Part shown: positions 1-42,126 of the stretch, piece after piece
How the letters are laid out: every line of letters begins with the position of its first letter
Numbering within the stretch: position 1 is the stretch's first letter
Assembly: GCA_017608995.1 (NCBI GenBank)
Contig: JAFCEU010000001.1
Location: 1-42,126 of the forward strand
Direction of reading: 5' to 3'
From: Candidatus Iainarchaeum sp.
GTDB lineage: Archaea > Iainarchaeota > Iainarchaeia > Iainarchaeales > DTGL01
DNA: 42,126 nucleotides
Notes under the pieces: generated by a model
Told to the model about the DNA's origin: nothing
The model's database searches: none
The model's input: only the letters and a program-made list of their open reading frames with translations
Program-made: the position numbers and the translations under genes

Positions 1-40
1 TGAAGACTTAAAAAGCTATGAAATTAAAGGCATCCTTGCC
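1..40. repeat. Terminal overlap copy 1 (identical to 42087-42126); circular or terminally redundant genome
   Basis: 40/40 identical bases at both window ends; an ORF reads through the join in frame. Confidence 0.95.
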
Positions 41-450: not shown

Positions 451-467
451 AGGCCGGGAAAAAATGA
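450..467 (+). promoter_or_regulatory. Conserved gene-junction motif, copy 2 (GAGGCCGGGAAAAAATGA)
   Basis: 17/18 match to 882-899; immediately precedes and includes ATG 464. Confidence 0.6.
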
Positions 468-625
468 CTAAAACAATAAAAGGAAATTTGGTGTTAGAAA
501 AAGATACTGTATTCAATGAAAGCATTGATGTTAAGGCCAGCATGTGCGAATGGGGTTTATTAATGAATGTGGACGAGAAAGCAAAAGAACGCAGGCGGAA
601 AGCAGGGAAGCCACATGCGCAGTAG
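464..625 (+). CDS. hypothetical protein, MTKTIKG(N/D)L N-terminal module; paralog of 41297..41428
   Basis: ATG preceded by the junction motif. MTKTIKGNLVLEKDTVFNESIDVKA aligns with MTKTIKGDL..LEKDTVFDKSISVEG at 41297. Confidence 0.5.
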   Translation: MTKTIKGNLVLEKDTVFNESIDVKASMCEWGLLMNVDEKAKERRRKAGKPHAQ

Positions 626-3389: not shown

Positions 3390-3954
3390 AAAATCTTGAA
3401 AGCCAAAGAAGATTAATCGTCTTCTTCGGTAAAATAATGTATGGAAGTTGATTTAAGCATAATGCCCAAAATGGTTCGCTTTTCAAATTTTAAGCGAGAA
3501 TTTGGTTTAATTTCCTGAAAAAAGCCTAATTTTTACCCTGTTTTTTGTTTAAATCGTTGCCTGATACTATTTAAATTTTGATAGTATGAGTAAAAAGTTT
3601 GAATTTTTTTGCGGCATAATCATTTTTCTATACATAACTATTGTGTCTTACAATTGCATTACTTTTTTTGATTTTTTAGCGATTACAAATTAAGACAAAA
3701 AGATGTTTAATATACATTAATAAACATTTCTCTCTTAATTCTTTTTTCTTCTTAACGAAAAAAATTGAAAAAACATTAAAAAATAATCTTGAAAGACACT
3801 TGCAAGACACATCATAGAATGATATTTTTTTATAATTAATAATCAAATTAACCGATTAACCGACATATTTAAAAAGAGAATATATATAAATAATATATGA
3901 TTTTTTGTTAATGAAAAAACAAAAAATCAACAGCAAAAAGGGAGATGATGAAAA
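3390..3954. promoter_or_regulatory. largest non-coding region (about 565 bp), very AT-rich, between divergent genes
   Basis: No ORF of 60 aa or more fills it. It carries short direct repeats (AAGACAC x2, ATTAACCG x2), a 7-bp inverted repeat (ATACTAT/ATAGTAT) and TATA-like tracts. Confidence 0.5.
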
Positions 3955-5182: not shown

Positions 5183-6019
5183 ATGCGGACTTATGTAAAT
5201 ACCGTTATGCAGGTTTCCGTTCAGGACTTGGGTTTTAACGGCTTTCAGTTTCCTATAAGTGTGTTCTCTCTAAACAGGGACAACAGTGTTAAATTCAATC
5301 AACAGCACAATAACGAGGCGTGCAGGGAGCAAGATGCAAGAGTAAATTACATAAAGCGTTGTAGTGCCTGCGGCAAGGACTTACAGGCAAGCGAGATAAT
5401 CAAAGTTTTCAGGGCGGACAAGGAAAGCAAGGCATATTTTACAGAAGAAGAAATAAAGGCGTTGAAGAAAACAACGGACAAAGTGGAAATAGTGGCAATA
5501 TCGCTAAACAAGGACATTCCAGATTACCTTAAAGGCGGTTGCTATGGCTTAAGCATTCAGCCAAAAAGCAAGACTTTAGCAAGCGATAAGCAGGCATACC
5601 TAACCCTTGTTTCATTTTTGGGCGAGGACTTGGCATTAATCGGCTATTTCAGTAGCAGGAACTCCACGCACTTGGTCAGGGTTTTCGCATTAACAAACTA
5701 TTTGCTAATGCAAAAGCTGGCCTTTGCCGAAAACTCACAGTTTGATGAGTTTATGCAGTTGCACACTCAACAAATGGGAAGCGTTGCCTTGCCAGACATG
5801 GCGATACTGCAACAAACAGCGAGAACAGTAGCAAAACCGTTGGCTTTAACGGATTTCAGGAATGAACCGCTTGAAAGATTGCAAGAATTGATTGAGAGCA
5901 GAATACAAAACCCAAACGCAAAAATAGAAGTGCCAGAACAGGCAACAGTGACAGCAACTCCAATATTCAGCAAGGAATACCAGCAAAAGATAGCCGAACA
6001 GGTGAAAGCAAGGGTGTGA
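5183..6019 (+). CDS. ku: Ku-like DNA end-binding protein
   Basis: ...VKFNQQH...RVNYIKRCSACGKDLQASEIIKVF...AYFTEEEIKAL...VEIVAI...YGLSIQP...AYLTLVSFL...LALIGYFSSRNSTHLVRVF... follows the prokaryotic Ku core pattern as I recall it from Mycobacterium Ku. Confidence 0.75.
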   Translation: MRTYVNTVMQVSVQDLGFNGFQFPISVFSLNRDNSVKFNQQHNNEACREQDARVNYIKRCSACGKDLQASEIIKVFRADKESKAYFTEEEIKALKKTTDKVEIVAISLNKDIPDYLKGGCYGLSIQPKSKTLASDKQAYLTLVSFLGEDLALIGYFSSRNSTHLVRVFALTNYLLMQKLAFAENSQFDEFMQLHTQQMGSVALPDMAILQQTARTVAKPLALTDFRNEPLERLQELIESRIQNPNAKIEVPEQATVTATPIFSKEYQQKIAEQVKARV

Positions 6020-6040
6020 AAACACCCTTATATTTTTTTT
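6010..6040 (+). terminator. stem-loop plus T8
   Basis: AAGGGTG/CACCCTT 7-bp stem enclosing the ku stop codon, followed by TATATTTTTTTT. Confidence 0.55.
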
Positions 6041-6131
6041 AAAAAAATTGGGGGTTGAGAAATGGAGTTTTTGAGCAGGGGAAAGGGTTTAACGCATAAG
6101 GAAGCGGTTGAATTAGGGCTAAGGTGGAAGA

Positions 6132-6983
6132 ATGAGTGAAACTTGTATGTTGTGCCAAGTGATAGCATTAGAGGAAGCATTACGCAATAACAACTATATT
6201 CTGGACTTAAAATATGACGGAAGCCGTTGTATTGCCAAGCGTTATGAAAATGGGGCAGTTGCCTTGTTCAACAGGCAGGGCAGAAATATAACATACCGAT
6301 ACCCCGAATTGTTAAAGGCCTTGCGGGGTTTTCTGCCTTGCGATAGCGTTGCAGATGGTGAAATAGTAATAATGAAAGATTGGGAAACACACTTAACCGA
6401 TTTTAATGCCTTGCAGGGCAGGGAACACCTGCAAAACACCTTTAAGATTAAACTGCGTTCCGAGAGCAACCCCGCAACCCTTGTCTTGTTTGACTTAATC
6501 CGCTTGCAAGGGCAAGACTTGGCTTGGCAACCAATTGAAAAAAGAAGGCAGGAACTACACAACCTTTTTACTTTTAATACTTTTAATACTTTTAATACTT
6601 CTAATAGAATAGTGGAAGTAAAAGAGTTTGAGAACCTGAAAGACGCTTGGGATTTCGTTAAAAAACACAATTTAGAGGGCTTAATATTAAAAGCAAAGGG
6701 AAGCCCTTACGAATACAGGCGTTCAAACAATTGGCTAAAATTAAAGAATACGAGAAGGGCAACAGTAGAGGTTTCAGGATATGAGGAACACCCAAAAGGC
6801 ATAACCCTAACAGGCAGAAAAATAAGGGTTGCCTGCAACGGACACCAAAGCATAGAGGTTAAGCGGTTGCTGGAACAAAAAGGCAGGTTGCAGGTAGAAA
6901 TAGAATACTTGGAAATGACTAAAAACGGTTTCTACCGTATGCCAACATTCAAAAAAGTGGTTGGATATGGCTTTTATTCCTGA
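6132..6983 (+). CDS. ATP-dependent DNA ligase (minimal NTase+OB type, LigD-ligase/Chlorella-virus-like size)
   Basis: Motif I KYDGSR, III DGEIVI, IIIa LVLFDL, IV EGLILK, V WLKLK, all in the canonical order; 283 aa. Confidence 0.9.
   Translation: MSETCMLCQVIALEEALRNNNYILDLKYDGSRCIAKRYENGAVALFNRQGRNITYRYPELLKALRGFLPCDSVADGEIVIMKDWETHLTDFNALQGREHLQNTFKIKLRSESNPATLVLFDLIRLQGQDLAWQPIEKRRQELHNLFTFNTFNTFNTSNRIVEVKEFENLKDAWDFVKKHNLEGLILKAKGSPYEYRRSNNWLKLKNTRRATVEVSGYEEHPKGITLTGRKIRVACNGHQSIEVKRLLEQKGRLQVEIEYLEMTKNGFYRMPTFKKVVGYGFYS
6570..6605 (+). repeat. 9-bp tandem repeat ACTTTTAAT x4 inside the ligase gene
   Basis: Three perfect units plus one with 1 mismatch; encodes (TFN)3-TSN between motif IIIa and motif IV. 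Confidence 0.9.
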
Positions 6984-7254: not shown

Positions 7255-7416
7255 TTGAAAATCTATATTGTTGTGGACACGCATGGAAGGGGAAAACAGG
7301 CAATACAGCAGGTTTTTACAAACCGAATAAAAGCCTTGAAATATATTGAAAAATGGGAAGCGTTAGGGCAAACAGGATTAGAAGTCTATATGTTTGAAAC
7401 AGGGGGGAGAAAATGA
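7255..7416 (+). CDS. hypothetical protein (53 aa, TTG start)
   Basis: GAAGGTGGTGA SD 5 nt before TTG 7255; stop overlaps ATG 7413 (ATGA). Confidence 0.45.
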   Translation: MKIYIVVDTHGRGKQAIQQVFTNRIKALKYIEKWEALGQTGLEVYMFETGGRK

Positions 7417-8504
7417 ACAAAGAAAAACAATTACAGGAATTAAAAAAGGAAATTAAAAAAGCAGGCCTGGACACTGATACAATTGATTTACTGAATTTGG
7501 TGGACAGCAGTTTAACCCTGAATGAAAACAGGCAAAACATCTTCAAGCAGTTAGGCATAACGCCAGCACAAAACTTTAAAGCCCAAGAGGAAAAAGCAAG
7601 GCAACAGATGATTGAAAGAGAGGAAGAACACGCCAGCCAAGAATTTAACAAGGCAATTGACAGAATAATACAAGAAAGCAATCCAAGAGTAGCACAACAC
7701 TACAAAAACGCAATTGACTACATAAAAATGGTTGCAGAAGGATATACCAACGCACTTATTTTATGTGGTGAGGGGGGTTTAGGTAAAAGCCATATAGCCC
7801 TAAAAACACTCAAAGAGGAAAACACTGAATTTGAATACGTATCGGGCTATATAACCCCCCTTCAATTAGTGAACCTACTTTATCAAGGGAATGGCAAGCT
7901 GTTCTTTTTTGACGATTGCGAGGGACTTTTTAATGACGATAAAACGTTGGCAATACTCAAATCAGCGACTTGGCAAATAGGAGATGAGAGAATAGTAATG
8001 TATCACAGTTCAACTGAAAAACTGACAGCTCCAACAAAGTTTTCCTGCAACAGCAGGTTTATCTTCTGCATAAACCAGCTTCCAAGCCAAAGCCCAACAC
8101 TTGAAGCCCTAATAAACAGAACGCTTTACTACAAAATCCATTTCCCATTCAAAGAAAAAATAAAACTATTTTTTGAAGTAGCAAAACAACCCTACAAAGA
8201 GTTAAGCAGGCAGGACAGATTTGCGGTAGTGCAATTCTTAAAAGAAAAGTGCAACGAGGCAACCGAAAACTTGAGTATAAGGACTTTGCTCAAGGGATTT
8301 GATATGCTTTCCTACTCTAAAAGCGGTTGGAAGAGGTTGCTTTCAGGCGTTTTGGATAAAAACGAATACCTTGATTTTATAATGCAAATTGAACATTTGA
8401 AACCATTAGAACAAGTGGAAGCGTTTAAGCAACGCTTTGGCTTAAGCCAAGCGACATTCTACCGAAAAAAGAAAATACTTAAAGAGAGAAGGGGGATTAT
8501 GTAG
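7413..8504 (+). CDS. AAA+ ATPase with C-terminal HTH-like tail (Orc1/Cdc6-like or clamp-loader-like)
   Basis: Walker A GEGGLGKSH, Walker B LFFFDDCE, sensor-1-like FIFCINQ, Arg-containing LSIRTLLK. Sits next to the PCNA gene. Confidence 0.8.
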   Translation: MNKEKQLQELKKEIKKAGLDTDTIDLLNLVDSSLTLNENRQNIFKQLGITPAQNFKAQEEKARQQMIEREEEHASQEFNKAIDRIIQESNPRVAQHYKNAIDYIKMVAEGYTNALILCGEGGLGKSHIALKTLKEENTEFEYVSGYITPLQLVNLLYQGNGKLFFFDDCEGLFNDDKTLAILKSATWQIGDERIVMYHSSTEKLTAPTKFSCNSRFIFCINQLPSQSPTLEALINRTLYYKIHFPFKEKIKLFFEVAKQPYKELSRQDRFAVVQFLKEKCNEATENLSIRTLLKGFDMLSYSKSGWKRLLSGVLDKNEYLDFIMQIEHLKPLEQVEAFKQRFGLSQATFYRKKKILKERRGIM

Positions 8505-8551
8505 CTTTTTCTCACTTTTCTCATTTTATCAAATGCAAGGGGGTGAAGTAA

Positions 8552-9382
8552 GTGAAGATTGAAACAAGCGAGGAAGCACTGCAAGTAGTGAAAATGATTG
8601 CCGAAATGCAGGAAGTTTGCGGTGAAACAAACATTACAGCGACAAAAGACAAGCTACTAATACAAGCAATTGACGGAAGCCAAACCGCTTTTGTGGAAGC
8701 GGAAATTGAAACAAGCACAGGCGTAGAACAAGAGGAAAAATTTGGAGTAAACGCAAACGATTTAGCAACGGTTCTGCGGGCATTACGGGGGCAAACGCTG
8801 AAAATGGAAACAGGGGAAAAAAACGAGCTGGTAATCAAAACAGGGGACGACTACTCAAAAGAACAAAACGAGCTAACCTTGTTCCTTGAGCCAGCACACG
8901 ACTTGGAAATGGCAACCAAAGCAGTAAGGCAAATAGAACACACGCAAACAGTGAAAATAGAGGGAACACAGGATTTCAGAACAGGGCTGAAGCTGGCTGG
9001 TTTAATAGATGAGGGAACTGTGCTGTTTGAAACAACCAAAGACAACCTTTTTCTAATAACGGCAAACGGACAAAGAGGAACATTCAAGAGAAGAATACGC
9101 ATAAAGTCAGGTGTCCACGCAAAAGGGTTGCCTACAAAAACAGCATTAAACAGGGAGCAACTGTTACAGTTAGTGAAAGCAAAGGCAACAGATGTCCAAC
9201 TGCATTTAGGCAACAACAAGCCAATCCTAATAGAATACGAGTTAGGTAACGCAAAAACAAAGATATGGGTTGCCCCAAGAATAATGGACTACGAAAGCCC
9301 GACAGCGAAAGAAGAAGAAATAGAGGAATTGGAAGAAGGGGCAGAAGAAGAACAGGAAAAAGTAATGGAAGCAATAGCCTAA
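8552..9382 (+). CDS. PCNA-like sliding clamp with acidic C-terminal tail
   Basis: GTG start after AAGGGGGTGA. ...LLIQAIDGSQTAFVEAEI...FGVNANDLATVLRAL... and C-terminal ...IWVAPRI match the archaeal PCNA layout (compare the Pyrococcus PCNA C-terminal FLLAPRV). Confidence 0.75.
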   Translation: MKIETSEEALQVVKMIAEMQEVCGETNITATKDKLLIQAIDGSQTAFVEAEIETSTGVEQEEKFGVNANDLATVLRALRGQTLKMETGEKNELVIKTGDDYSKEQNELTLFLEPAHDLEMATKAVRQIEHTQTVKIEGTQDFRTGLKLAGLIDEGTVLFETTKDNLFLITANGQRGTFKRRIRIKSGVHAKGLPTKTALNREQLLQLVKAKATDVQLHLGNNKPILIEYELGNAKTKIWVAPRIMDYESPTAKEEEIEELEEGAEEEQEKVMEAIA

Positions 9383-16459: not shown

Positions 16460-18433
16460 TTAATACAGTGTGTTTACTCCTCCGCCACTGTCTTTATAAA
16501 CGAGTTTCGATTGAGTGGTTGAGTAGTAGATTGAATTATTAGGTGCTGCCGCATCTGTGGAGCTGATTGGCCTGAAATACCCGCTTCCGTCTATTACGGT
16601 TGAACCGCCGACGTCAATGTTTCCGTCGCTGTCAATTGAAACTTTAGTGTTCCAGCCAGAGTCGCGAATATTGAAACTTCTTGCCCCGGCTGAGTCTCCC
16701 AAAATAACATAGGCGCTCTTATTGGAAGCGCAGATTGTATAAACATTCCCGCCATACCCTATGAAGATGTCATTATTAGATGAAATTACTCCATACCCAG
16801 ATGCGTTTATATACATGCCAACATATTTGCCGCTTTGGTCGTCATACCCATTCACCTTAACCCCTACACTGTCCGCTCCCTGATTTAGTGTTATTCCTGT
16901 TGAGCCATCCCCTGTTGCTGTTATGCTTCCTGTTGATAATGTCCCTGTTGTGCTTAAATCTTCATCACCGAAATCTATGCTTCCTGTTGAATCTGTTATT
17001 GAACCGGTTCCTAAGGTCATTGTATTTACTGTTACAAAATTTATAGATGTCAGGTTGCTGAATATTGGAGTTCCACTGGTTGTTACATCCTGGTCAATAT
17101 AGGTATGTGATGTTCCATCAGAAGTTGAATGGGTTTCAGAAATTGTAATTGTATCAGTTGTAGCATCGCCAGTTACAGTAATTGCTCCTCCAACAGCTAA
17201 ATTTAATGTATCTGCAAAGCTCTCTGCTACAGGGTTAGTTCCAGCAGGGCAGGAAATGGTTTTAAAGATATAGACATCTGTTCCGCCTTGCTGTAATGTT
17301 CCTGCATTTATTGTCCCTGTTGTGCTTAAATCTTCATCACCGAAATCAATGCTTCCTGTTGAATCTGTTATTGAACCGGTTGCTAAGGTCATTGTATTTA
17401 CTGTTACCTGACTGAATGTTGGAGTTCCACTGGTTGTTACATCCTGGTCAATATAGGTATGTGATGTTCCATCAGAAGTTGAATGGGTTTCAGAAATTGT
17501 AATTGTATCAGTTGCCGCATCGCCAGTTACAGTAATTGCTCCTCCAACAGCTAAATTCAATGTATCTGCAAAGCTCTCTGCTACAGGGTTAGTTCCAGCA
17601 GGGCAGGAAATAGTTTTAAAGATATAGACATCTGTTCCGCCTTGCTGTAATGTTCCTGCATTTATTGTCCCTGTTGTGCTCAAATCTTCATCACCGAAAT
17701 CAATGCTTCCTGTTGAATCTGTTATTGAACTACCAGCAATAGTAAGTGTTCCTGCAGTAATAGATGTGTTTGCTTGTATTGTTCCGAACCCAGACAGATT
17801 ACTTCCACTCCAAGATGCAGTTCCGTCTGTTAAAGAAACTAGTCCTGTTCCAGCTCCTCCTGTAAAACTAATAGTCCCGTCTGTTAATGTTCCTGCATTT
17901 ATTGTCCCTGTTGTGCTTAAATCTTCATCACCGAAATCAATGCTTCCTGTTGAGCTTGTGAGTGAGTCAGTTGCAATGGTTATGTTTCCAAATGTTGCTG
18001 CTACCCCAGAAATACCCCATCCGCCCAAGTTTATGTCTTGATTGGCGTTTGAGCCATCAAGTTTTAGCCACTGTGTGTCGCCATATGAATCCACTCTTGC
18101 ATCAGTGTAATACAAATTAGTTGCGCCTTCAGGGATATCATCTGTATCAACTTGGCCTGGACCGCTTCCCCAATCTATATGGGTATCCTTAACGGCATCT
18201 ATCGCATCTGCTATCGCCCCAACTTGGGCAGCTGTTACATTATGAGGGTTTGACATGTCAGCAATGTGGTCCTGGGCTGTCTTCAAAGTGGTTGTTGTGT
18301 CCCAGCCGCTTCCCCCATACCTTGCGTCATGGTCGGAATTGGTGCCATCTAAATCAGGCATATCTGTTAAATCAGTATGGCTAATCTGCTCAAATGGCAA
18401 ACCCCGATGATGCCTAATTTTGGGCATATTCAT
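16460..18433 (-). CDS. fibre-like repeat protein (about 657 aa)
   Basis: N-terminal ...DHIADMSNPHNVTAAQVGA... motif, which is common in phage tail-fibre proteins. Gly/Thr/Ser-rich, with four STGSIDFGDEDLSTTGT motifs. Start is ambiguous (ATG 18436/18433/18427) and overlaps the upstream gene. Confidence 0.85.
   Translation of the reverse strand: MNMPKIRHHRGLPFEQISHTDLTDMPDLDGTNSDHDARYGGSGWDTTTTLKTAQDHIADMSNPHNVTAAQVGAIADAIDAVKDTHIDWGSGPGQVDTDDIPEGATNLYYTDARVDSYGDTQWLKLDGSNANQDINLGGWGISGVAATFGNITIATDSLTSSTGSIDFGDEDLSTTGTINAGTLTDGTISFTGGAGTGLVSLTDGTASWSGSNLSGFGTIQANTSITAGTLTIAGSSITDSTGSIDFGDEDLSTTGTINAGTLQQGGTDVYIFKTISCPAGTNPVAESFADTLNLAVGGAITVTGDAATDTITISETHSTSDGTSHTYIDQDVTTSGTPTFSQVTVNTMTLATGSITDSTGSIDFGDEDLSTTGTINAGTLQQGGTDVYIFKTISCPAGTNPVAESFADTLNLAVGGAITVTGDATTDTITISETHSTSDGTSHTYIDQDVTTSGTPIFSNLTSINFVTVNTMTLGTGSITDSTGSIDFGDEDLSTTGTLSTGSITATGDGSTGITLNQGADSVGVKVNGYDDQSGKYVGMYINASGYGVISSNNDIFIGYGGNVYTICASNKSAYVILGDSAGARSFNIRDSGWNTKVSIDSDGNIDVGGSTVIDGSGYFRPISSTDAAAPNNSIYYSTTQSKLVYKDSGGGVNTLY
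16941..17725. repeat. near-identical tandem duplication inside the fibre gene (periods 372 and 354 bp), with a further partial unit starting at 17904
   Basis: GTCCCTGTTGTGCTTAAATCTTCATCACCGAAATC... recurs at 16941, 17313, 17667 and 17904. Units 1 and 2 differ mainly by one short indel block. Confidence 0.9.
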
Positions 18434-18830
18434 CATATCTCCAAATCTCAACTTCAACAACAATGCCTGCGGTTTCACTCATTACATAAATCGCGTTAAT
18501 TTCACGGTTTGGCACTGTGTCTTCACTTAAAACATCTCCTGAAGAAAGCGTCATATAAGTTGAATGGGTTGGCTCAAAACAGTATTTCAGCTCATAGTTG
18601 CCACGAGCCTTCAACTGCCAGGTAACAATCTCGGGCTCTAATTTTATTTCATACCATTTCCCAGCCTCGTTCAAATAATGGTTAATGATGTGTGAGTAAA
18701 TTGGCCTTTTTTCTTCAGTTTTAACCTCTTTTACCTCTTTTACCTCCTTTGTTGGCTTAATGCCTTTTTTCAATTCTTCAGCCAAAAAAACCACTTGAGG
18801 CCAAGAAAAACTATTTTTCAACGATAGCAA
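18414..18830 (-). CDS. hypothetical protein; start codon uncertain
   Basis: No ATG near the 5' end (TTG at 18830 or GTG a few codons in). Contains (KEV)3; the C-terminal beta-rich part overlaps the fibre gene start. Confidence 0.55.
   Translation of the reverse strand: MLSLKNSFSWPQVVFLAEELKKGIKPTKEVKEVKEVKTEEKRPIYSHIINHYLNEAGKWYEIKLEPEIVTWQLKARGNYELKYCFEPTHSTYMTLSSGDVLSEDTVPNREINAIYVMSETAGIVVEVEIWRYDEYAQN
18724..18750. repeat. 9-bp tandem repeat x3 (mRNA sense AAAGAGGT-A/T)
   Basis: ACCTCTTTT ACCTCTTTT ACCTCCTTT on the + strand; encodes KEVKEVKEV and resembles three SD sequences. Confidence 0.85.
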
Positions 18831-30728: not shown

Positions 30729-31094
30729 ATGGAAGAAGAGAAAAAGTTCTTCATTGGGGCAGCAGGAATAGCAGGAATAGCATTATTATATTATTTTTGG
30801 AGACCGCCTGAGCAACCAATAACAATAGAAAAAGTAAATTTTGTTTCAACTGAAGCACAAGGCAGCATAAATGTTGATTCAGTAAATTTTGTTTCAACTG
30901 AAGCACAAGGCAGCATAAATGTTGATTCAGTAAATTTTGTTGTTTTAACTCCAACAGGAGACATCCCATCCATTAGCAGTTCATTTGTATCAATAGAACC
31001 AAAAGGAAGCGTTGATGTTGATTCAAGTGGATTTGTTATAACTGGACCTGTTGGAACAATTAAAATTACTGGAGAAAGATTCAATGCAATATGA
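30729..31094 (+). CDS. TM-anchored repeat protein
   Basis: N-terminal FFIGAAGIAGIALLYYFW, then VNFVSTEAQGSINVDS x2 plus degenerate copies. Confidence 0.65.
   Translation: MEEEKKFFIGAAGIAGIALLYYFWRPPEQPITIEKVNFVSTEAQGSINVDSVNFVSTEAQGSINVDSVNFVVLTPTGDIPSISSSFVSIEPKGSVDVDSSGFVITGPVGTIKITGERFNAI
30834..30942. repeat. perfect 48-bp tandem repeat x2 plus a 13-bp partial third unit
   Basis: 30834-30881 equals 30882-30929 base for base. Confidence 0.9.
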
Positions 31095-37180: not shown

Positions 37181-37221
37181 TTTTTCTAAAAAAAGAAAAG
37201 AGGAAGACTTACCCGTCTTCC
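37181..37221 (-). terminator. hairpin plus T-rich tail for the 37209..37661 transcript
   Basis: GGAAGAC/GTCTTCC 7-bp stem around the stop, followed on the minus strand by CTCTTTTCTTTTTTT. Confidence 0.5.
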
Positions 37222-37661
37222 ATTCTTGTTCCGTTATCTGGTTGGGTCACTTGGGGGGTATCCTGCGTTGGCTCTTCCTCTGTCCTTTCCCCCTTTGGGA
37301 CAACAGTATACTGTGTTTGAAAGCCCTCGCCAGTTTTCTCAATCCTGAAACGCTTTTTGTAGATTGATTCATCTTCATCCATATAGGGCTTCAAAGTGTT
37401 GAATAGGCGCTTGCTTGTCGAGGAAAGGACTTTGGGCTCATCCTCTGGAATCTTCTCACCGTTGATGGATTCAACGCCAATCTCAAAAAACCATTTGTTG
37501 CTTACTTCTCCAGTGTCTCTGTCAGTAACAGCCTTTTGAACCTGTTTCACGCTCCCAGGGATGAATTCTACTTCGACTGGCTTGTTTGACTCAAGTTTTA
37601 AGAAATCGCCTTCAAATTTCTGCTCATCAATGCCATACTTTTCCTTAACAATATCTTGCAC
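37209..37661 (-). CDS. hypothetical protein with acidic C-terminal tail (possible ssDNA-binding protein)
   Basis: AAGGAGGTGA SD, GTG start. Beta-rich core ...RFRIEKTGEGFQTQYTVVP, then a Glu/Asp/Pro/Thr-rich tail. Confidence 0.65.
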   Translation of the reverse strand: MQDIVKEKYGIDEQKFEGDFLKLESNKPVEVEFIPGSVKQVQKAVTDRDTGEVSNKWFFEIGVESINGEKIPEDEPKVLSSTSKRLFNTLKPYMDEDESIYKKRFRIEKTGEGFQTQYTVVPKGERTEEEPTQDTPQVTQPDNGTRMEDG

Positions 37662-38695: not shown

Positions 38696-38876
38696 TTGTT
38701 TTCACCTCCTTCTTCTCCCTTGGGGCTTGGAATTTCTGTTCATGGCCCCCAAAATCAACCCATTTGTCATTCCAGAAAAGCCATTTCCGCAAAGCCCTCT
38801 CTTCCTTATTCAGCTTCTGGCGAGGCAACTGAAGCCTGCGCCTCTGGTACGGAAGCAGCTCATCCCACTTCTTCAA
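38661..38876 (-). CDS. hypothetical basic protein (71 aa, TTG start)
   Basis: AAGGGGGT SD 5 nt before the TTG, inside the 3' end of the upstream gene. Confidence 0.45.
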   Translation of the reverse strand: MKKWDELLPYQRRRLQLPRQKLNKEERALRKWLFWNDKWVDFGGHEQKFQAPREKKEVKTNAEKENESNTV

Positions 38877-40656
38877 AATAATACCCCCTTATACGCATAT
38901 ACTGTTCAACCAAGGGCTTTGACAGCTCATATTCAACCCCGGCGCCAACCCTTCGCTTCTTAATCAAAGGAATCCGACTCAAACGCCTACCAACAAAGCG
39001 GGGAGTCGGCAAGCTCCTGCCTCTGATTCTTTTATACTCCTGCTCGGTATCAACACCGGCTTCAACCATCAAATGCTCTTTCAGCCAGGAAGTAATTTGG
39101 GTAGTAGAATAGTGCTTGGGCTCATCAATTACATTAGCCAAAATAGAGGCAAACAGGGCGTAGTCCCAGTCGCCGCTCAAATCAACCTTTGCCCTGTCGC
39201 CAAAACAGTTTACCAGAAAATCCAGCATTTGCTGGTGAAGGGCAGAGTCAATTCCTTTCACAATAGCCAGCGGGCCTTTTACCAGCTCTAAATCCCGGTT
39301 ATTAAGCACAGTACACTCATAAGACTCGTAATCCTGCTGGATTCTTTTCCAGTGCGTTAAAACATAGATATGGCAAAAATCCCTAATCAACTGCCATATT
39401 TGGTTTCTGTCATCAGGTTCTCTTTTCCCTTTCTCAGTCAAAGTTTTCATCAGGTGAATTGGAATACACCTTGAGAGAGTAACCGGCTCCAGGCCAGAAA
39501 TGTTTGTAATGATTTTGGGGCAGTAGCAGTCAAAAAACTTTGGTTGAAAGACATCACGCTTTCGCTCAACCCTCATTGTTTTGCCCTTTTTTTTGTAGCC
39601 AATTTTCAGGATTTGAAGCAAAGCATTCCTTTTCTCCTCGGACATCTTGTCGAAGTCGTCTATAACCATTAAACCTTTGAATAGCTCAGGGGCCCTGAAC
39701 AAGGCCGAATCGCTTGGGTCGCTTGCGTCAATTGTGTGGAATGAGCAATTCCCGATTATTTCAGCAAATTTCGTTTTTCCGCTGTCGGATTCCGAGTTGA
39801 AGAAAAGATAGCCAATAGACCTGAATAACTCGAAGCAGTAGGTTGCAATGATATAGGCCGCACCAATCAAGAAAATTCGCTTGTCTGTTACATCCATAAA
39901 GTAGTCCTGGGTTTTTATGAGAATTTCAAACAGGGTTTTTCCTAACTGGTTTGGTGTAGTTTTAGTGTAGTTTAGTGTAGTTTTAGTGTAGTTAATTTTT
40001 AGTGTAGTTTTAGTGTAGTTAGGTGTAGTTAAGGTTTCTGCAATTGGTGTAGTTAGTGTAGGATATGAGGTAGGTCTATACAGATAGGTGAGATGTATAT
40101 TTTTTTTATTTTTTTTATTTATATAAAGGAGCTTCTTTAGAGTATTATCTACACTACCTTCTACATATGCACTAACTACACCACCTACACTTTCAGCATT
40201 TTTACAGAAGTCCGCAATTGATTTATTGCTCCAAGCGTTATCAGTCGGCACCAGCGAAATTCTATAATTCAATCCGGCTTCCTTAATCTCATTTCTTCCA
40301 TAGGACTCGTTTTTCTTTTTTCCTCCTCCAACCTTGACACCACTATAATCAATTAAAACACACCCATTGTCAAAAATCACACTGTCCACAAAGTTTCCTT
40401 CCAATTCTATTTTTTTCCCAAAATAAAAATGGTTTTGGAAAATGCCTTGATTTAAATTATAATGTATAATTTCATCCAGCTTCTCAAAAATTTTCCCCCC
40501 GTTTGTTCTCTCAAAATCATATCGCTCGAGTTCCCAGTCCTTATGTTTACATTCACAGAAGACCTCTGGGATAACAGGCTTTTGTCCCCTTTTCAATTCT
40601 TGGCTAAGCAAATTTCCGCATCGCCTGCATTTCCAGATAGCGGTCTTATCGGCCAT
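38860..40656 (-). CDS. replication protein: N-terminal zinc finger plus P-loop NTPase (DUF3631-like / primase-associated helicase-like)
   Basis: AAGGAGGGGGAAA SD before ATG 40656. CRRCG...CEC; Walker A SESDSGKTK; ...SALFRAPELFKGLMVIDDFDKM (Walker B); ...LKIGYKKKGKTMRVE...CYCPKIITNISGLEPVTLSRCIPIHL resembles the DUF3631 core. Confidence 0.8.
   Translation of the reverse strand: MADKTAIWKCRRCGNLLSQELKRGQKPVIPEVFCECKHKDWELERYDFERTNGGKIFEKLDEIIHYNLNQGIFQNHFYFGKKIELEGNFVDSVIFDNGCVLIDYSGVKVGGGKKKNESYGRNEIKEAGLNYRISLVPTDNAWSNKSIADFCKNAESVGGVVSAYVEGSVDNTLKKLLYINKKNKKNIHLTYLYRPTSYPTLTTPIAETLTTPNYTKTTLKINYTKTTLNYTKTTPNQLGKTLFEILIKTQDYFMDVTDKRIFLIGAAYIIATYCFELFRSIGYLFFNSESDSGKTKFAEIIGNCSFHTIDASDPSDSALFRAPELFKGLMVIDDFDKMSEEKRNALLQILKIGYKKKGKTMRVERKRDVFQPKFFDCYCPKIITNISGLEPVTLSRCIPIHLMKTLTEKGKREPDDRNQIWQLIRDFCHIYVLTHWKRIQQDYESYECTVLNNRDLELVKGPLAIVKGIDSALHQQMLDFLVNCFGDRAKVDLSGDWDYALFASILANVIDEPKHYSTTQITSWLKEHLMVEAGVDTEQEYKRIRGRSLPTPRFVGRRLSRIPLIKKRRVGAGVEYELSKPLVEQYMRIRGYYFEEVG
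39954..40063. repeat. iteron array: 8 perfect GTGTAGTT copies plus 1 partial, mostly 10-11 bp apart
   Basis: Copies start at 39954, 39965, 39975, 39986, 40002, 40013, 40023 and 40047 (partial at 40056); they lie within the replication gene. Confidence 0.85.
40096..40127. promoter_or_regulatory. 32-nt 100% A+T tract (candidate DNA-unwinding element)
   Basis: TATATTTTTTTTATTTTTTTTATTTATATAAA, flanked by the iterons and by an inverted AACTACAC copy at 40174-40181. Confidence 0.5.
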
Positions 40657-40870
40657 TTTCCCCCTCCTTAAAGAAGTAGTAGAACACGCTTTTATCGTTG
40701 TAGAAATATATTTTTTGCTTGTCTTCAAATACGGTTTTGCTTGGATTGAGTTCCTCATTTTTCGCTAATTCGTTGAATTCTTTTAAGGAGAAAACTTCTT
40801 GTGGGACATATTTTTCCTTTAAAAGAGAAATAGAGATTCCGCCTACCTTTACTTTTCTTATTTCGGACAT
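40646..40870 (-). CDS. hypothetical protein (74 aa), first gene of the replication operon
   Basis: ATG-initiated ORF; 11-nt overlap with the downstream gene. Confidence 0.6.
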   Translation of the reverse strand: MSEIRKVKVGGISISLLKEKYVPQEVFSLKEFNELAKNEELNPSKTVFEDKQKIYFYNDKSVFYYFFKEGENGR

Positions 40871-41001
40871 GACTTACTTCACCTTACTACACTCTAAAAA
40901 AATAGAGTGATAAGATATAGTCTTTTCTCTTTAAAAAGCTTTTGCTTAAAGAAAACTTAAACGATATGTTTTTAAGGAGAATAGATGATTAACATAATGA
41001 A

Positions 41002-41304
41002 ATGAACGAGGCTTTACTTGCGCTGATTAGAAAACAATTCTTGGACCAAGGTGGGAACCTTGATGAGTTCCAGGATTTGGTATCCATCTGGGAGAGCATG
41101 GAACACTCCCGAGGAATGATTGCGGAGCGTTTTGGAGGAAGGCAACTTCATCTGATTGCTGATTGCTGCGAATTCTTGCTCCGCAATCTCACCCCCCTTG
41201 AGCAAGAGAAGATTTTAATTGAATTGCAAAAACGCTTACGAAACAAGGCTGCCCGGGACCAGGCAATCTTGCGCAGGTTTATGGTTGTGGGAAAGAATGA
41301 CTAA
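41002..41304 (+). CDS. hypothetical protein (100 aa)
   Basis: ORF after the divergent intergenic region; stop overlaps the next gene start. Confidence 0.6.
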   Translation: MNEALLALIRKQFLDQGGNLDEFQDLVSIWESMEHSRGMIAERFGGRQLHLIADCCEFLLRNLTPLEQEKILIELQKRLRNKAARDQAILRRFMVVGKND

Positions 41305-41428
41305 AACAATAAAAGGAGATTTGATATTAGAAAAAACAATAAAAGGAGATTTGGTCTTAGAAAAAGACACCGTATTTGATAAAAGCATTAGTGTTGAGGG
41401 TAACATTGTTCAAAGCATGGAACATTAA
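41297..41428 (+). CDS. MTKTIKGDL N-terminal module (43 aa) with an internal 30-bp duplication; paralog of 464..625
   Basis: ATG 41297; TIKGDLILEK/TIKGDLVLEK duplicated. The frame stops at 41426-41428 just where the repeat ORF is open in the +1 frame. Confidence 0.5.
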   Translation: MTKTIKGDLILEKTIKGDLVLEKDTVFDKSISVEGNIVQSMEH

Positions 41429-41708
41429 TGCAGGAGACATCAATGCAGAGGACATCAAAGCAGGTGATATCAATGCAGTGGACATCAAAGCAAGGGACAT
41501 AAAAGCATGGGACATCAATGCAGGAGATATCAATGCAGTGGACATCAATGCAGGCGACATCAAAGCAAAAAATATTTCATACTATGCGGTTTGCTTTGCT
41601 TATCACAACATAGAATGCGATTCAATTAAAGGGCGAAGAGAAAACTCAAAGCACTTCTGCTTAGGTGGAAAAATAACGATTAGAAAAAAAGAGGCTGAGA
41701 AGAAATGA
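41376..41708 (+). CDS. 5-residue-repeat (pentapeptide-like) protein with Cys-containing C-terminus
   Basis: Open from 41361 (TTG 41376 or GTG 41391). 10-11 units of I-N/K-A-x-D, then ...NIECDSIKGRRENSKHFC...KKEAEKK-stop. Confidence 0.5.
   Translation: MIKALVLRVTLFKAWNINAGDINAEDIKAGDINAVDIKARDIKAWDINAGDINAVDINAGDIKAKNISYYAVCFAYHNIECDSIKGRRENSKHFCLGGKITIRKKEAEKK
41412..41576. repeat. 15-bp tandem repeat x11 (consensus AATGCAGGNGACATC)
   Basis: Units read off directly at 41412, 41427, 41442 ... 41562. Confidence 0.9.
41691..41708 (+). promoter_or_regulatory. Conserved gene-junction motif, copy 5 (GAGGCTGAGAAGAAATGA)
   Basis: 16/18 match; contains ATG 41705 and TGA 41706-41708. Confidence 0.55.
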
Positions 41709-41824
41709 GAGAATTGAAATGCCCATCATGCGGCAGAGAATGGGTTTACACAGGCAAGCATAGAAAGTTTGCGAGTTGCCCAAGCTGTGGAAAATTAGTA
41801 AAAGAAACGAGGTTTTGGGATTGA
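41705..41824 (+). CDS. zinc-ribbon protein (39 aa)
   Basis: MRELKCPSCG...ASCPSCG; ATGA overlap upstream and TTGA overlap downstream; verified by hand. Confidence 0.55.
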   Translation: MRELKCPSCGREWVYTGKHRKFASCPSCGKLVKETRFWD

Positions 41825-42126
41825 TTTTCTCGGACAAGCTATATTTAAAGTCAGTTGCAGAAATGATTCTTAATGGCGAGAAGACGCAGACAAGAAGGCT
41901 TGTGAAAGAAGGCGACAGATTCAACAAAGAGCCAGGAAGAGGGCCTATAAATGCCGTAGTCAATGACCTGACTGAAAGGGAAAAGTGGAAAATTGGCAAG
42001 GATTACGCTGTCCAGCTTGGCAGAGGAAAGCCAGAGCTTAGATATTGCCCAAAATGTAAAAACTATACTGAAATGCTTCCTCCTGCTGAAGACTTAAAAA
42101 GCTATGAAATTAAAGGCATCCTTGCC
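41821..42126 (+). CDS. ASCH-domain protein, N-terminal part (continues at 41..316 after removing the duplicated 40 bp)
   Basis: TTG 41821 (or ATG 41863). ...MILNGEKTQTRRLVKEGD... is the typical ASCH N-terminal strand-turn motif. Confidence 0.7.
   Translation, partial: MIFSDKLYLKSVAEMILNGEKTQTRRLVKEGDRFNKEPGRGPINAVVNDLTEREKWKIGKDYAVQLGRGKPELRYCPKCKNYTEMLPPAEDLKSYEIKGILA
42087..42126. repeat. Terminal overlap copy 2 (identical to 1-40)
   Basis: 40/40 identity. Confidence 0.95.

What the first reader, a model, noticed from the sequence alone, without database searches (positions are those of the whole stretch)
39954..40190. Helically phased iteron array plus AT-only tract embedded inside the replication-protein gene (lambda-O-style intragenic origin)
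Eight perfect GTGTAGTT copies sit mostly 10-11 bp apart, about one helical turn. They are followed by a 32-nt 100% A+T tract and then an inverted AACTACAC copy plus CTACAC-like half sites. This is the classic iteron/DUE origin layout. All of it lies within the ORF of the zinc-finger/P-loop protein, where it is translated as a low-complexity linker (...TLTTPNYTKTTLKINYTKTTLNYTKTTP... and ...KKNKKNIHL...). A related ACTACAC motif also occurs in the divergent promoter region at about 40887. The protein may bind its own coding sequence to fire replication.
Basis: seen in the sequence. Interest (0 to 1): 0.65.

Follow-up and report, generated by a model that had tools for sequence, protein, structure and literature searches.

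The report
Replication origin inside its own helicase gene
A 42-kb circular archaeal mobile element appears to carry its replication origin (short repeated binding sites around an easily melted A+T tract) inside the flexible linker of its own replication-helicase gene. This is a new variant of an arrangement already known from phage lambda and staphylococcal islands.

Summary
Nine GTGTAG(TT) copies lie at 39954-40061. A 32-nt pure A/T tract (40096-40127) is the longest and least stable in the genome. Four inverted CTACAC/CTACAT copies lie at 40149-40190. All of it sits in the predicted disordered linker (aa 156-234) of a 598-aa protein: N-terminal zinc ribbon and beta domain, AAA+ ATPase, C-terminal winged helix.

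The protein has no Pfam family. Its fold matches MCM subunits and, weakly, the SaPI1 self-loading Rep helicase.

Fifteen homologous loci (35-47% protein identity) keep the same DNA motif in the same linker, in the same 5'-GTGTAG...CTACAC-3' order, enriched 36- to 135-fold over their flanks. It is read in more than one codon phase. One relative switched both arms to another motif. Other relatives carry inverted repeat sets in a C-terminal linker or just after the stop codon, as SaPI origins do. GC3 skew places the best-fitting origin at 39-41 kb.

The best reading is an iteron-type origin bound by its own helicase-initiator (confidence about 0.65). No binding or coverage data exist. The promoter copy at 40887 is not conserved, and the lambda-O likeness is positional only. 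This is a new variant of a known kind.

The parts
38860..40656 (-). Gene for the 598-aa helicase-initiator (Rep-like). Start MADKTAIWKC with GGAGG upstream; stop codon at 38860-38862.
   Evidence: ORF and sequence. 46 homologues, none annotated. AF2 model pLDDT 78.7. Foldseek matches MCM subunits at E 2e-8 over about 600 columns. The CTD model's top PDB hit is SaPI PriRep1, 7pds_A.
40516..40656 (-). N-terminal four-Cys zinc ribbon (aa 1-47, CRRC...CEC).
   Evidence: Sequence and beta strands in the model. It is absent from many homologues, which instead have a C-terminal zinc ribbon.
40192..40479 (-). Conserved beta-rich N-terminal domain (aa 60-155; NLNQG..HFYFGK..VIFDDG), possibly OB-like.
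   Evidence: Alignment A1. Model strands 70-103. Weak Pfam MCM_OB hits in 5 of 43 members.
39955..40191 (-). Disordered inter-domain linker (aa 156-234), which is also the proposed origin.
   Evidence: pLDDT below 50 for aa 156-173 and 176-234. Its length varies from 30 to 143 aa among homologues. There are 0 in-frame stops against 147 and 146 in the other two frames over 16 loci.
39954..40061 (+). Iteron arm A: nine GTGTAG(TT) copies, starting at 39954, 39965, 39975, 39986, 40002, 40013, 40023, 40047 and 40056.
   Evidence: Copy number is 9 here, 5 in L083 and 4 in L084, differing by whole-repeat indels.
40096..40127 (.). 32-nt pure A/T tract, the candidate DNA-unwinding element. It is read as YINKKNKKNI using only AAT/AAA/ATA/TAT codons.
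   Evidence: Longest A/T run and least stable 30-mer of the 42-kb genome. It is conserved in L083 and L084 but not in all relatives.
40149..40190 (+). Iteron arm B, inverted relative to arm A: CTACAC at 40149, 40176 and 40185, and CTACAT at 40161.
   Evidence: An equivalent GTGTAG arm lies at the 5' side of the linker in 13 of the 15 homologous loci.
39412..39954 (-). AAA+ ATPase core (aa 235-415). Walker A is GKT at K294/T295, Walker B is D333/D334 (VIDDFDKM), the sensor-1-like residue is N385, and the Arg-finger-like residue is R396 (LSRCIP).
   Evidence: Invariant columns in A1. Pfam MCM P-loop gives a weak hit at aa 327-349. Fold hits.
38863..39126 (-). C-terminal winged-helix domain (aa about 511-598, wing KKRRVGAGVEY), the candidate iteron reader.
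   Evidence: Secondary structure. Foldseek hits to SmtB/ArsR, TubR and Sso10a winged helices and to SaPI PriRep1. The wing is conserved in relatives that keep the CTACAC motif and altered in L010 and L033.
40646..40870 (-). 74-aa ORF overlapping the start of the helicase gene. It is a conserved partner of unknown role.
   Evidence: tblastn finds it upstream of the homologue in L083 (91% identity), L084 (78%) and L014 (36%). It has no family hit.

Best explanation
The 39954-40190 segment is the vegetative replication origin of a 42,086-bp circular archaeal mobile element, written into the disordered linker of its own initiator-helicase gene.

Proposed mechanism:
- Two oppositely oriented sets of the 6-8-bp iteron (GTGTAG(TT) x9 and CTACAC x4) are bound by the protein encoded by this same gene, most likely through its C-terminal winged helix.
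- Binding nucleates one AAA+ ring on each side of the 32-nt pure A/T tract.
- The tract melts and the two rings unwind outward. This is the self-loading mode described for SaPI Rep helicases, and in principle for SV40 T antigen and papillomavirus E1.

Because the sites lie in a translated but unstructured linker, the DNA satisfies two codes at once. The extended unit ACTACACTAA can be read in only two frames without a stop (TTL or NYT). The alternating 11/10-bp spacing gives a 21-nt, 7-codon period. The A/T tract uses only AAT/AAA/ATA/TAT codons.

What is shown: the repeats, their arrangement and significance; the disorder of the linker; the fold class of the protein; family-wide conservation and relocation of the motif; co-variation of the two arms; and the GC3-skew optimum.

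What is inferred: that the protein binds the repeats, through which domain, that the tract is where melting starts, and that replication is bidirectional.
For: 1. Statistics and anatomy. The 8-mer occurs 10 times against 0.64 expected. Of the 10 GTGTAG on the + strand, 9 lie in 108 bp, and the inverted arm lies 88 bp away. The A/T tract between them is the longest pure A/T run and the least stable 30-mer in the genome.

2. Selection acts on the DNA, not the peptide. In 15 independent homologous loci (35-47% protein identity, linker unalignable as protein), GTGTAG runs at 7.2/kb in the linker against 0.2/kb outside. CTACAC runs at 13.5/kb against 0.1/kb. Where both motifs occur, GTGTAG lies 5' of CTACAC (L007 carries an extra inverted pair). 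The motif is read in more than one codon phase, and the other arm is its reverse complement, encoding SV(V/G/D)S.

3. Concerted specificity change. L010 has AATTCCACT x5 with AGTGGAA x2-3 in the other arm, in place of CTACAC/GTGTAG.

4. The element travels with the gene.
- Short-linker relatives carry ACTACA >>> <<< sets or 2-3 direct CTACAC copies in a second linker after the winged helix (L026, L027, L030, L014, L082, L035, L085).
- Others carry different motifs in the C-terminal region or across the stop codon (L028, L034, L079).
- Distant homologues have two inverted sets 50-270 bp after the stop (L033, L040, L043, L046, L048, L077).
- In 24 of the 28 loci whose best cluster exceeded the null maximum, the cluster was inside the gene or within 300 bp downstream. 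None was more than 1 kb away.

5. The protein is a replication helicase of the self-loading kind. It has a P-loop AAA+ core with invariant Walker A and B, an Asn and an Arg. Foldseek matches MCM subunits at E 2e-8 and Toprim-helicase and SF3 proteins of phages down to E 8e-19. The top PDB hit of the CTD model is SaPI PriRep1 bound to dsDNA, followed by winged-helix DNA binders. Distant members are fused to Prim-Pol/PriCT_1. SaPI Reps bind 5-6-bp iterons placed in two opposite sets around an AT-rich centre, through a C-terminal winged helix (PMC9371898).

6. Copy number varies by whole repeats (9, 5, 4) with matching changes in protein length, as reported for lambda and Stx phage O genes (PMC7466680).

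7. Skew. A regression of coding-strand GC3 skew on leading/lagging assignment peaks at an origin of 39-41 kb. It gives t = 3.5-4.0 and permutation p = 0.004-0.02 with three gene-call thresholds.

8. No comparable iteron array exists elsewhere in the genome, including the AT-rich 3390-3954 region and the divergent point near 30 kb.
Against: - There is no direct evidence of binding, melting or initiation.
- No usable read-depth profile exists. Only fragmentary low-depth contigs of public runs could be laid on the region.
- GC skew over all codon positions prefers about 29-30.5 kb (t = 3.7-4.6). Only GC3 favours 40 kb.
- The AT-rich spacer between the arms is strong here and in some relatives but absent in others, such as L005, L009, L012 and L019.
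- Some relatives have only 2-3 direct copies and no inverted arm, which could mean a different role such as an operator.
- The binding protein is not identified. The conserved 74-aa upstream ORF or a host factor could read the repeats.
- Co-variation of the winged-helix wing with the motif is only partial. L026, L027 and L030 keep ACTACA with a different wing.
- The inverted arms also give a moderately stable single-strand fold (RNA z = -2.5, DNA z = -3.0), so a structural role is not excluded.
Confidence: 0.65

Rival explanations
1. The repeats are binding sites for the same or another protein but serve regulation rather than initiation. Possible roles are auto-repression or roadblocking of rep transcription, or copy-number control by handcuffing. 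The true origin would lie elsewhere.
For: - Some relatives have only 2-3 direct copies with no inverted arm or A/T tract.
- The AT-rich spacer is not universal.
- All-position GC skew prefers about 30 kb.
- A regulatory role was also raised for RepAM sites inside repAM (PMC2440964).
Against: - No other iteron array exists in the 42-kb genome.
- The layout of two inverted sets around the least stable 30-mer of the genome matches characterised SaPI origins (PMC9371898).
- GC3 skew peaks at 39-41 kb.
- Three direct iterons are sufficient for specific binding by the Cch2 helicase at a putative origin (PMC7581432).
Confidence: 0.13
2. The inverted repeat arms act as a nucleic-acid structure. This could be a cruciform or hairpin in DNA (as proposed for the pMEA300 repAM hairpin, possibly with rolling-circle nicking) or a long-range mRNA stem that modulates translation between the two protein domains.
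For: - Folding energies are lower than for shuffles (RNA z = -2.48, DNA z = -2.96).
- Concerted change of both arms in L010 is also what base pairing would predict.
- pMEA300 offers a precedent (PMC2440964).
Against: - The arms are very unequal (9 against 4 copies), and copy number varies freely.
- The MFE structure has negligible ensemble frequency, and the RNA centroid lacks the long-range stem.
- Several relatives have only direct copies.
- The protein is an AAA+ helicase, not an HUH nickase.
Confidence: 0.07
3. The array is another kind of cis site, such as a partition centromere or a packaging or recombination site, bound by a protein other than the helicase.
For: - Phased 10-11-bp repeat arrays in two blocks resemble some plasmid centromeres (my own knowledge: parC of plasmid R1).
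- The winged-helix part of the model also resembles TubR.
- The element has an integrase.
Against: - The site co-migrates with the helicase gene across a superfamily whose neighbouring genes differ.
- No ParA/ParB-like or terminase gene was recognised next to it.
- An att site would not need 13 copies.
Confidence: 0.06
4. It is merely a low-complexity, slippage-prone protein linker (Thr/Asn/Lys-rich) with no DNA-level function.
For: - The region is disordered.
- Repeat number varies between close relatives.
- 50 of 63 CTACAC copies share one codon phase.
Against: - The same DNA word is read in two or three phases, giving different peptides, and its reverse complement forms the other arm.
- The word persists at 35-47% protein identity and is 36- to 135-fold enriched.
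- It also occurs in non-coding DNA downstream or upstream of homologues.
- L010 changed both arms together.
Confidence: 0.03

Closest known systems
SaPI / PICI Rep-ori modules (self-loading Rep helicases of Staphylococcus aureus pathogenicity islands; PMC9371898)
   Same: - Short 5-8-bp iterons sit in two sets of opposite orientation on either side of an AT-rich centre.
- They are physically attached to the gene of an AAA+ helicase-initiator with a C-terminal winged helix.
- Each lineage has its own motif.
- The best PDB hit of the C-terminal model is SaPI PriRep1 bound to dsDNA.
- Distant homologues of the window protein have the array right after the stop codon, as SaPIs do.
   Different: - Here the origin is inside the ORF, in the linker between the N-terminal domain and the ATPase.
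- The host is archaeal.
- There is no detectable sequence homology, and the fold match is weak (E 6.6e-3).
- The N-terminal zinc ribbon and beta domain are different.
Phage lambda / Stx-phage O gene with ori-lambda (PMC7466680)
   Same: - The origin (iterons plus an AT-rich tract) lies in the middle of the initiator's own gene.
- The iterons are translated.
- Gain or loss of iterons lengthens or shortens the protein (13 aa in Stx phages; 16 aa between the window and L083).
   Different: - The lambda iterons are about 19-bp, intrinsically bent sites in one array beside the AT tract.
- O is not an ATPase and recruits the host DnaB through P.
- Here 6-8-bp asymmetric sites flank the tract in inverted sets, and the protein is itself a helicase-type AAA+.
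RepAM of actinomycete integrative element pMEA300 (te Poele et al. 2006, as reviewed in PMC2440964)
   Same: [quoted passage not shown] The repeats are inverted and able to form a hairpin.
   Different: - The host is bacterial.
- The sites lie at the 3' end of repAM with a pC194-like nick site, which suggests rolling-circle replication.
- RepAM is not reported as an AAA+ helicase.
- Homology to the window protein was not tested here.
SCCmec Cch2 helicase and its putative origin (PMC7581432)
   Same: A self-loading-type helicase that binds specifically to three direct 5-nt iterons next to its gene. This parallels the short-linker relatives, which have 2-3 direct CTACAC copies.
   Different: - The sites are intergenic.
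- The ATPase is of the D5/SF3 type.
- The host is bacterial.
Archaeal and eukaryotic MCM helicases
   Same: - Overall fold and domain order match: N-terminal beta domain with zinc, an AAA+ core, and a C-terminal winged helix. The top 50 PDB hits are all MCM subunits.
- The Walker B motif VIDDFDKM and LSRCIP resemble MCM's IDEFDKM and SRFD (comparison from my own knowledge).
- Pfam MCM and MCM_OB give weak hits.
   Different: - It is below Pfam thresholds, and TM-scores are only about 0.3.
- Cellular MCM is loaded by Orc1/Cdc6 and does not read the origin itself.
- The equally strong viral hits are Toprim/SF3-type primase-helicases.

Membership tests
SaPI-type Rep-ori (self-loading helicase with iteron origin) | Multiple short (5-8 bp) iterons in two sets of opposite orientation | tested here: met
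   GTGTAG x9 at 39954-40061 and CTACAC/T x4 at 40149-40190.
SaPI-type Rep-ori (self-loading helicase with iteron origin) | AT-rich region at the centre of the origin | tested here: met
   A 32-nt pure A/T tract at 40096-40127 lies between the arms and is the least stable 30-mer of the genome. It is not conserved in all relatives.
SaPI-type Rep-ori (self-loading helicase with iteron origin) | Origin located immediately downstream of the rep ORF | tested here: not met
   In the window it lies inside the ORF (aa 156-234). The feature is met in distant homologues L033, L040, L043, L046, L048 and L077.
SaPI-type Rep-ori (self-loading helicase with iteron origin) | Rep is an AAA+ helicase with a C-terminal winged-helix DNA-binding domain | tested here: met
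   Met by prediction only: AF2 models and Foldseek hits to MCM, SF3 helicases, PriRep1 and winged-helix repressors.
SaPI-type Rep-ori (self-loading helicase with iteron origin) | Rep binds its cognate iterons and melts the origin without a loader | not testable with these tools
   Needs EMSA or footprinting and helicase-loading assays.
SaPI-type Rep-ori (self-loading helicase with iteron origin) | Homology to characterised SaPI Reps | tested here: inconclusive
   A profile search of PDB sequences found nothing relevant. The fold hit to 7pds_A is E 6.6e-3, probability 0.94, TM 0.30.
Lambda O-type intragenic origin | Origin (iterons plus AT-rich tract) in the middle of the initiator gene, translated as a linker | tested here: met
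Lambda O-type intragenic origin | Initiator of the O family (no ATPase; recruits a separate helicase) | tested here: not met
   No Pfam, PHROG or NCBIfam hit to O-like replication proteins. The protein has a P-loop AAA+ core.
Lambda O-type intragenic origin | About 19-bp iterons in one array beside the AT tract | tested here: not met
   The units are 6-8-bp and asymmetric, at 9-12-bp spacing, in two inverted arms flanking the tract.
MCM (SF6) helicases | Significant match to the MCM AAA+ domain model | tested here: not met
   Pfam MCM scores 13 bits against a cut-off of 23.3, over aa 327-349 only. One of 43 members hits.
MCM (SF6) helicases | MCM-like domain order and fold (N-terminal OB/Zn, AAA+, winged helix) | tested here: inconclusive
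   The top 50 PDB hits are MCM subunits at E about 1e-8 over about 600 columns, but TM is only 0.27-0.34. MCM_OB gives weak hits in 5 of 43 members. Viral SF3/Toprim helicases score better.
Classical plasmid iteron origins (RepA/pi/TrfA class) | 17-22-bp direct repeats bound by a winged-helix Rep without ATPase, plus host initiator boxes | tested here: not met
   The units are 6-8 bp in inverted sets, and the associated protein is an AAA+ helicase.

The most novel reading that the evidence does not exclude
A large, unannotated family of archaeal mobile-element helicases (MCM-like fold) act as their own origin-recognition proteins. Their origin behaves as a small movable cassette that evolution has repeatedly re-sited: after the stop codon, into a C-terminal linker, or into the linker between the N-terminal domain and the ATPase. 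It always lands in translated but disordered sequence. Both iteron arms switch specificity in concert with the protein (CTACAC, TTCCACT, GTCTCTA, ATGTCA, CCTTAC and others). The window shows the most elaborate case: 13 sites plus a coding-compatible 32-nt A/T unwinding element, with a 21-nt (11+10) period that reconciles helical phasing with the reading frame.
Probability: 0.4. Interest if true: 0.7.

Novelty: new variant of a known kind. Interest (0 to 1): 0.55.

Why it matters
- It would give a concrete, testable pairing of origin and initiator for mobile elements of uncultivated archaea. One homologue sits on a contig of a Ca. Iainarchaeum (DPANN) genome bin. Almost no replication origins or vector backbones are known for this group.
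- It is a clean natural example of overlapping codes: a protein linker, protein-binding sites and an unwinding element in the same 237 bp.
- The family supplies a ready-made series of specificity switches for studying how a helicase-initiator reads DNA.
- It extends the self-loading helicase principle (SaPI Rep, SV40 T antigen, papillomavirus E1) to an MCM-like protein in archaea, where MCM normally depends on Orc1/Cdc6.

Tried and rejected
Searches that found nothing useful:
- DNA similarity to known phages: no match.
- IMG/VR scan: one distant locus only.
- tRNA and Rfam scans of the window and tRNA scans of 28 loci: nothing.
- PDB sequence-profile search: only spurious hits.
- A literature search for an intragenic origin in an archaeal helicase gene found no such report.

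Coverage test: read-depth or peak-to-trough analysis was not possible. Public runs hold only short contigs at depth 2-15.

Rival origin sites:
- The AT-rich intergenic region 3390-3954 is the least stable region at the 100-200-nt scale, but it has no repeat family of three or more copies.
- The divergent point near 29.9-30.0 kb has no iterons.

Skew: plain cumulative GC skew follows gene orientation and is uninformative.

Promoter copy: the copy at 40887 was rejected as functional because it is lost in L083.

Which domain reads the motif: co-variation between the winged-helix wing and the motif gives only a weak hint. L010's wing is more diverged, but L026, L027 and L030 keep the motif with a different wing.

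CTD-only structure model: it came out at lower quality than the full-length model (pLDDT 71.5), so its SaPI hit is treated as weak.
Full report
OBSERVATION

The repeats are real and far beyond chance. GTGTAGTT occurs 10 times in the window against 0.64 expected, and no shuffle reaches 10. Eight copies lie on the + strand at 39954-40054 and one inverted copy at 40174-40181.

With the 6-mer core, 9 of the 10 GTGTAG on the + strand lie at 39954-40061, with start-to-start spacings of 11, 10, 11, 16, 11, 10, 24 and 9. Three of the 9 CTACAC, plus one CTACAT, lie at 40149-40190.

Between the two arms lies a 32-nt tract of pure A/T (40096-40127). It is the longest A/T run in the genome (the next is 22 nt) and the least stable 30-nt window by nearest-neighbour energy.

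The whole segment lies in ORF 38860-40656 on the minus strand.

THE ELEMENT AND ITS HOST

Bases 1-40 equal bases 42087-42126, so the window is a closed 42,086-bp circle or a terminally redundant genome.

It encodes:
- a tyrosine recombinase that passes the NCBIfam cut-off for archaeal XerA (229 bits against 220);
- a full-length but divergent PCNA-type sliding clamp;
- Ku and an NHEJ-type ATP-dependent ligase;
- an SSB-like protein, glycosyltransferases and a radical-SAM enzyme.

No capsid or terminase was recognised, so it may be a plasmid or a virus.

Two homologues bear on the host. One sits in a 136-kb contig beside an integrase and archaeal genes (Taw1-type wyosine synthase, DUF2666). Another sits on a contig of a Ca. 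Iainarchaeum genome bin. Public runs holding the sequence are hydrothermal-vent and sediment metagenomes. The host is therefore archaeal. A DPANN host is possible but not established.

THE PROTEIN

The true start is MADKTAIWKC, giving 598 aa. Pfam, PHROGs and NCBIfam give no significant family.

Forty-six homologues exist, all metagenomic and unnamed. An exhaustive profile search finds 12,975 cluster representatives at E <= 1e-3. These share the ATPase, lid and winged-helix module behind variable N-termini, and some of the N-termini are Prim-Pol/PriCT_1 primase domains.

AlphaFold2 (pLDDT 78.7) gives this domain order:
- a zinc ribbon (aa 1-47);
- a beta-rich domain (aa about 60-155);
- a disordered stretch (pLDDT below 50 for aa 156-173 and 176-234);
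- an AAA+ core with invariant GKT, DD, N385 and R396;
- a helical lid;
- a winged helix.

Fold comparisons:
- Against the PDB, Foldseek returns only MCM subunits in the top 50 (E about 1e-8 over about 600 columns, TM about 0.3).
- Against viral models, it returns Toprim-helicase and SF3/D5-type primase-helicases (best E 8e-19).
- A C-terminal-only model is of lower quality. Its best hit is SaPI PriRep1 bound to dsDNA (E 6.6e-3), followed by MCM, NrS-1, D5 and winged-helix repressors.

I therefore call it an MCM-like/SF3-like replicative AAA+ helicase with a C-terminal winged helix. It is not a demonstrated member of the MCM family.

THE DISORDERED LINKER IS THE REPEAT REGION

Residues 156-234 map to 39955-40191, which is almost exactly the reported 39954-40190.

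COMPARATIVE TEST

I fetched 80 metagenomic loci, one locus from a genome collection, and the contigs of the two closest relatives. The segment between the conserved WS and YMDV motifs is either long (60-143 aa) or short (about 30 aa).

Long-linker relatives:
- In 14 of the 15 long-linker loci the protein sequence of the linker cannot be aligned, yet the DNA carries the same word. GTGTAG copies lie at the 5' side and CTACAC copies at the 3' side (two of these loci, L003 and L012, lack a clear 5' arm).
- Over 15 loci the densities are 7.2 and 13.5 per kb inside the linker, against 0.2 and 0.1 per kb outside.
- The linker has no in-frame stop in any of 16 loci, against 147 and 146 stops in the other two frames. 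It is therefore truly translated as one protein.
- The word is read mainly as (A)CT-ACA-C (Thr-Thr-Leu/Pro) but also as AAC-TAC-AC (Asn-Tyr-Thr) and CTA-CAC. The other arm is its reverse complement. A peptide-level explanation therefore fails.
- The fifteenth locus, L010, has replaced the word in both arms together: AATTCCACT x5 and AGTGGAA x2-3.

Closest relatives:
- The array has 9 copies in the window, 5 in L083 (88% identity) and 4 in L084 (73%). The differences are whole-repeat indels.
- The flanking copies and the A/T tract are kept.
- Motif positions are better conserved than the rest of the linker and than third codon positions in the folded domains.

RELOCATION

Short-linker relatives are not devoid of the element.
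- L026, L027 and L030 carry ACTACA x3-5 followed by inverted copies in a second linker, between the winged helix and either a C-terminal zinc ribbon (L026, L030) or a C-terminal tail (L027).
- L014, L082, L035 and L085 carry 2-3 direct CTACAC copies at 9-bp spacing at the same place.
- L028 has GTCTCTAAA x7 with inverted copies there. L034 has TGACAT/ATGTCA sets across its stop codon.
- More distant homologues have two inverted sets of their own motif 50-270 bp after the stop, for example CCTTAC in L046 and L048.
- In 24 of the 28 loci whose strongest inverted cluster exceeded the maximum of 20 Markov shuffles, the cluster lay in the gene or within 300 bp downstream. None lay more than 1 kb away, although many loci extend 4 kb to each side.

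This is the layout of SaPI origins. There, 6-12 penta- or hexanucleotide iterons lie immediately downstream of rep, half on each side of an AT-rich centre and pointing in opposite directions. They are read by the winged helix in the Rep C-terminal domain, and Rep self-loads, probably as two hexamers (PMC9371898). The Cch2 helicase of SCCmec binds three direct iterons next to its gene (PMC7581432).

Two precedents exist for an initiator binding inside its own coding sequence:
- Lambda and Stx-phage O, where extra iterons add 13 residues to the protein (PMC7466680).
- RepAM of pMEA300, which binds 8-bp repeats within repAM (PMC2440964).

INDEPENDENT POSITIONAL EVIDENCE

Plain cumulative skew follows gene orientation. 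I therefore regressed the coding-strand GC3 skew of each gene on whether its coding strand would be leading, for every candidate origin with the terminus placed opposite.
- The optimum is 39-41 kb with all three gene-call thresholds (t = 3.5-4.0; permutation p = 0.004-0.02).
- With all codon positions the optimum shifts to 29-30.5 kb.

GC3 is the more neutral measure and gives balanced classes, so I treat this as modest support only. Neither the region near 30 kb nor the AT-rich intergenic region 3390-3954 has an iteron array.

WHAT DID NOT HOLD

- The CTACAC in the divergent promoter region (40887) is lost in L083.
- The 10-11-bp phasing is not a family trait. Relatives mostly use 9-12 bp. 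In the window and in L010 the alternating 11/10 spacing gives a 21-nt, 7-codon period. I read this as a way to combine helical phasing with an open frame, which is inference.
- The A/T-rich spacer is strong here and in L002, L003, L007 and L010 but absent in several relatives.
- Which domain reads the sites is open. The wing KKRRVGAGVEY is kept in most CTACAC lineages and altered in L010 and L033, but L026, L027 and L030 keep the motif with a different wing.
- The arms also fold better than shuffles as single strands (z = -2.5 for RNA, -3.0 for DNA). The structure ensemble is diffuse, however, and the arms are very unequal.

CONCLUSION

The most likely reading (about 0.65) is an iteron-type origin with a central unwinding element. 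It would be bound by the helicase-initiator whose linker it encodes, working like a SaPI Rep-ori module but placed like ori-lambda.

It fails the positional criterion of the SaPI class. It fails the protein and iteron criteria of the lambda class. It fails the sequence criterion of the MCM family. I therefore file it as a new variant of a known kind rather than as a member of any of them.

Its interpretation is right in substance and wrong in several details.

Noticed in passing
window 1-40 and 42087-42126: There is a perfect 40-nt terminal direct repeat. The window is therefore a complete circular (or terminally redundant) 42,086-bp element.
   Followed up: partly
window 41410-41567 (ORF 41376-41708, +): A 15-nt tandem array of about 10.5 copies encodes a pentapeptide-like repeat (DINAG/DIKAx). 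It gives weak hits to virion structural and tail PHROGs and to the Pfam Decapeptide repeat.
   Followed up: no
window 456-543, 877-934, 41289-41406, 41686-41709: Several small genes share near-identical ribosome-binding and start regions (AAAAAGAGGCCGGGAAGAAATGA) and the N-terminal coding sequence MTKTIKGDL(I/V)LEK. This looks like a paralogous gene family straddling the circle junction.
   Followed up: no
window 17058-17730 and 16927-17998 (ORF 16460-18478, -): A 354-nt tandem duplication (98% identical), with further diverged copies, lies inside a 672-aa ORF. This indicates a repeated-domain, probably surface or structural, protein.
   Followed up: no
window 30833-30941: There is a perfect 48-nt tandem repeat (2.3 copies) with a diverged third copy at 30977-31024, inside overlapping ORFs.
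   Followed up: no
window 5183-6983 and 7413-9382: The mobile element carries a Ku plus NHEJ-type ATP-dependent ligase pair. These are followed by an AAA+ protein (weak DnaC/IstB-like hits) and a divergent PCNA-type sliding clamp. Together with the helicase and an SSB-like protein (37209-37661), this makes a sizeable self-encoded DNA replication and repair kit.
   Followed up: partly
window 40646-40870 (-): A 74-aa ORF overlaps the helicase start codon. It is conserved upstream of the homologue in L083, L084 and L014 (36% identity). It has no known family and could be an accessory factor or regulator of the origin.
   Followed up: partly
L022 60-135 and 329-355: What looks like the 3' half of a tRNA gene (T-arm GGGGGTTCAAATCCCC on the reverse strand; ARAGORN calls no full tRNA) directly abuts three GTGTAG copies. 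More copies follow an AT-rich stretch upstream of the helicase gene. This may be an integration junction next to the origin-like repeats.
   Followed up: no
homologues in A1, L014, L026, L030, L035, L082, L085: The four-Cys zinc ribbon is N-terminal in the window's clade but C-terminal (after the winged helix and a CTACAC-bearing linker) in other clades. This is a domain permutation across the family.
   Followed up: no
window 6553-6560 and 6569-6606: The only GTGTAGTT/AACTACAC copy outside the array lies next to a 9-nt tandem repeat (TACTTTTAA x4.2) within the ligase gene region. The significance is unknown.
   Followed up: no
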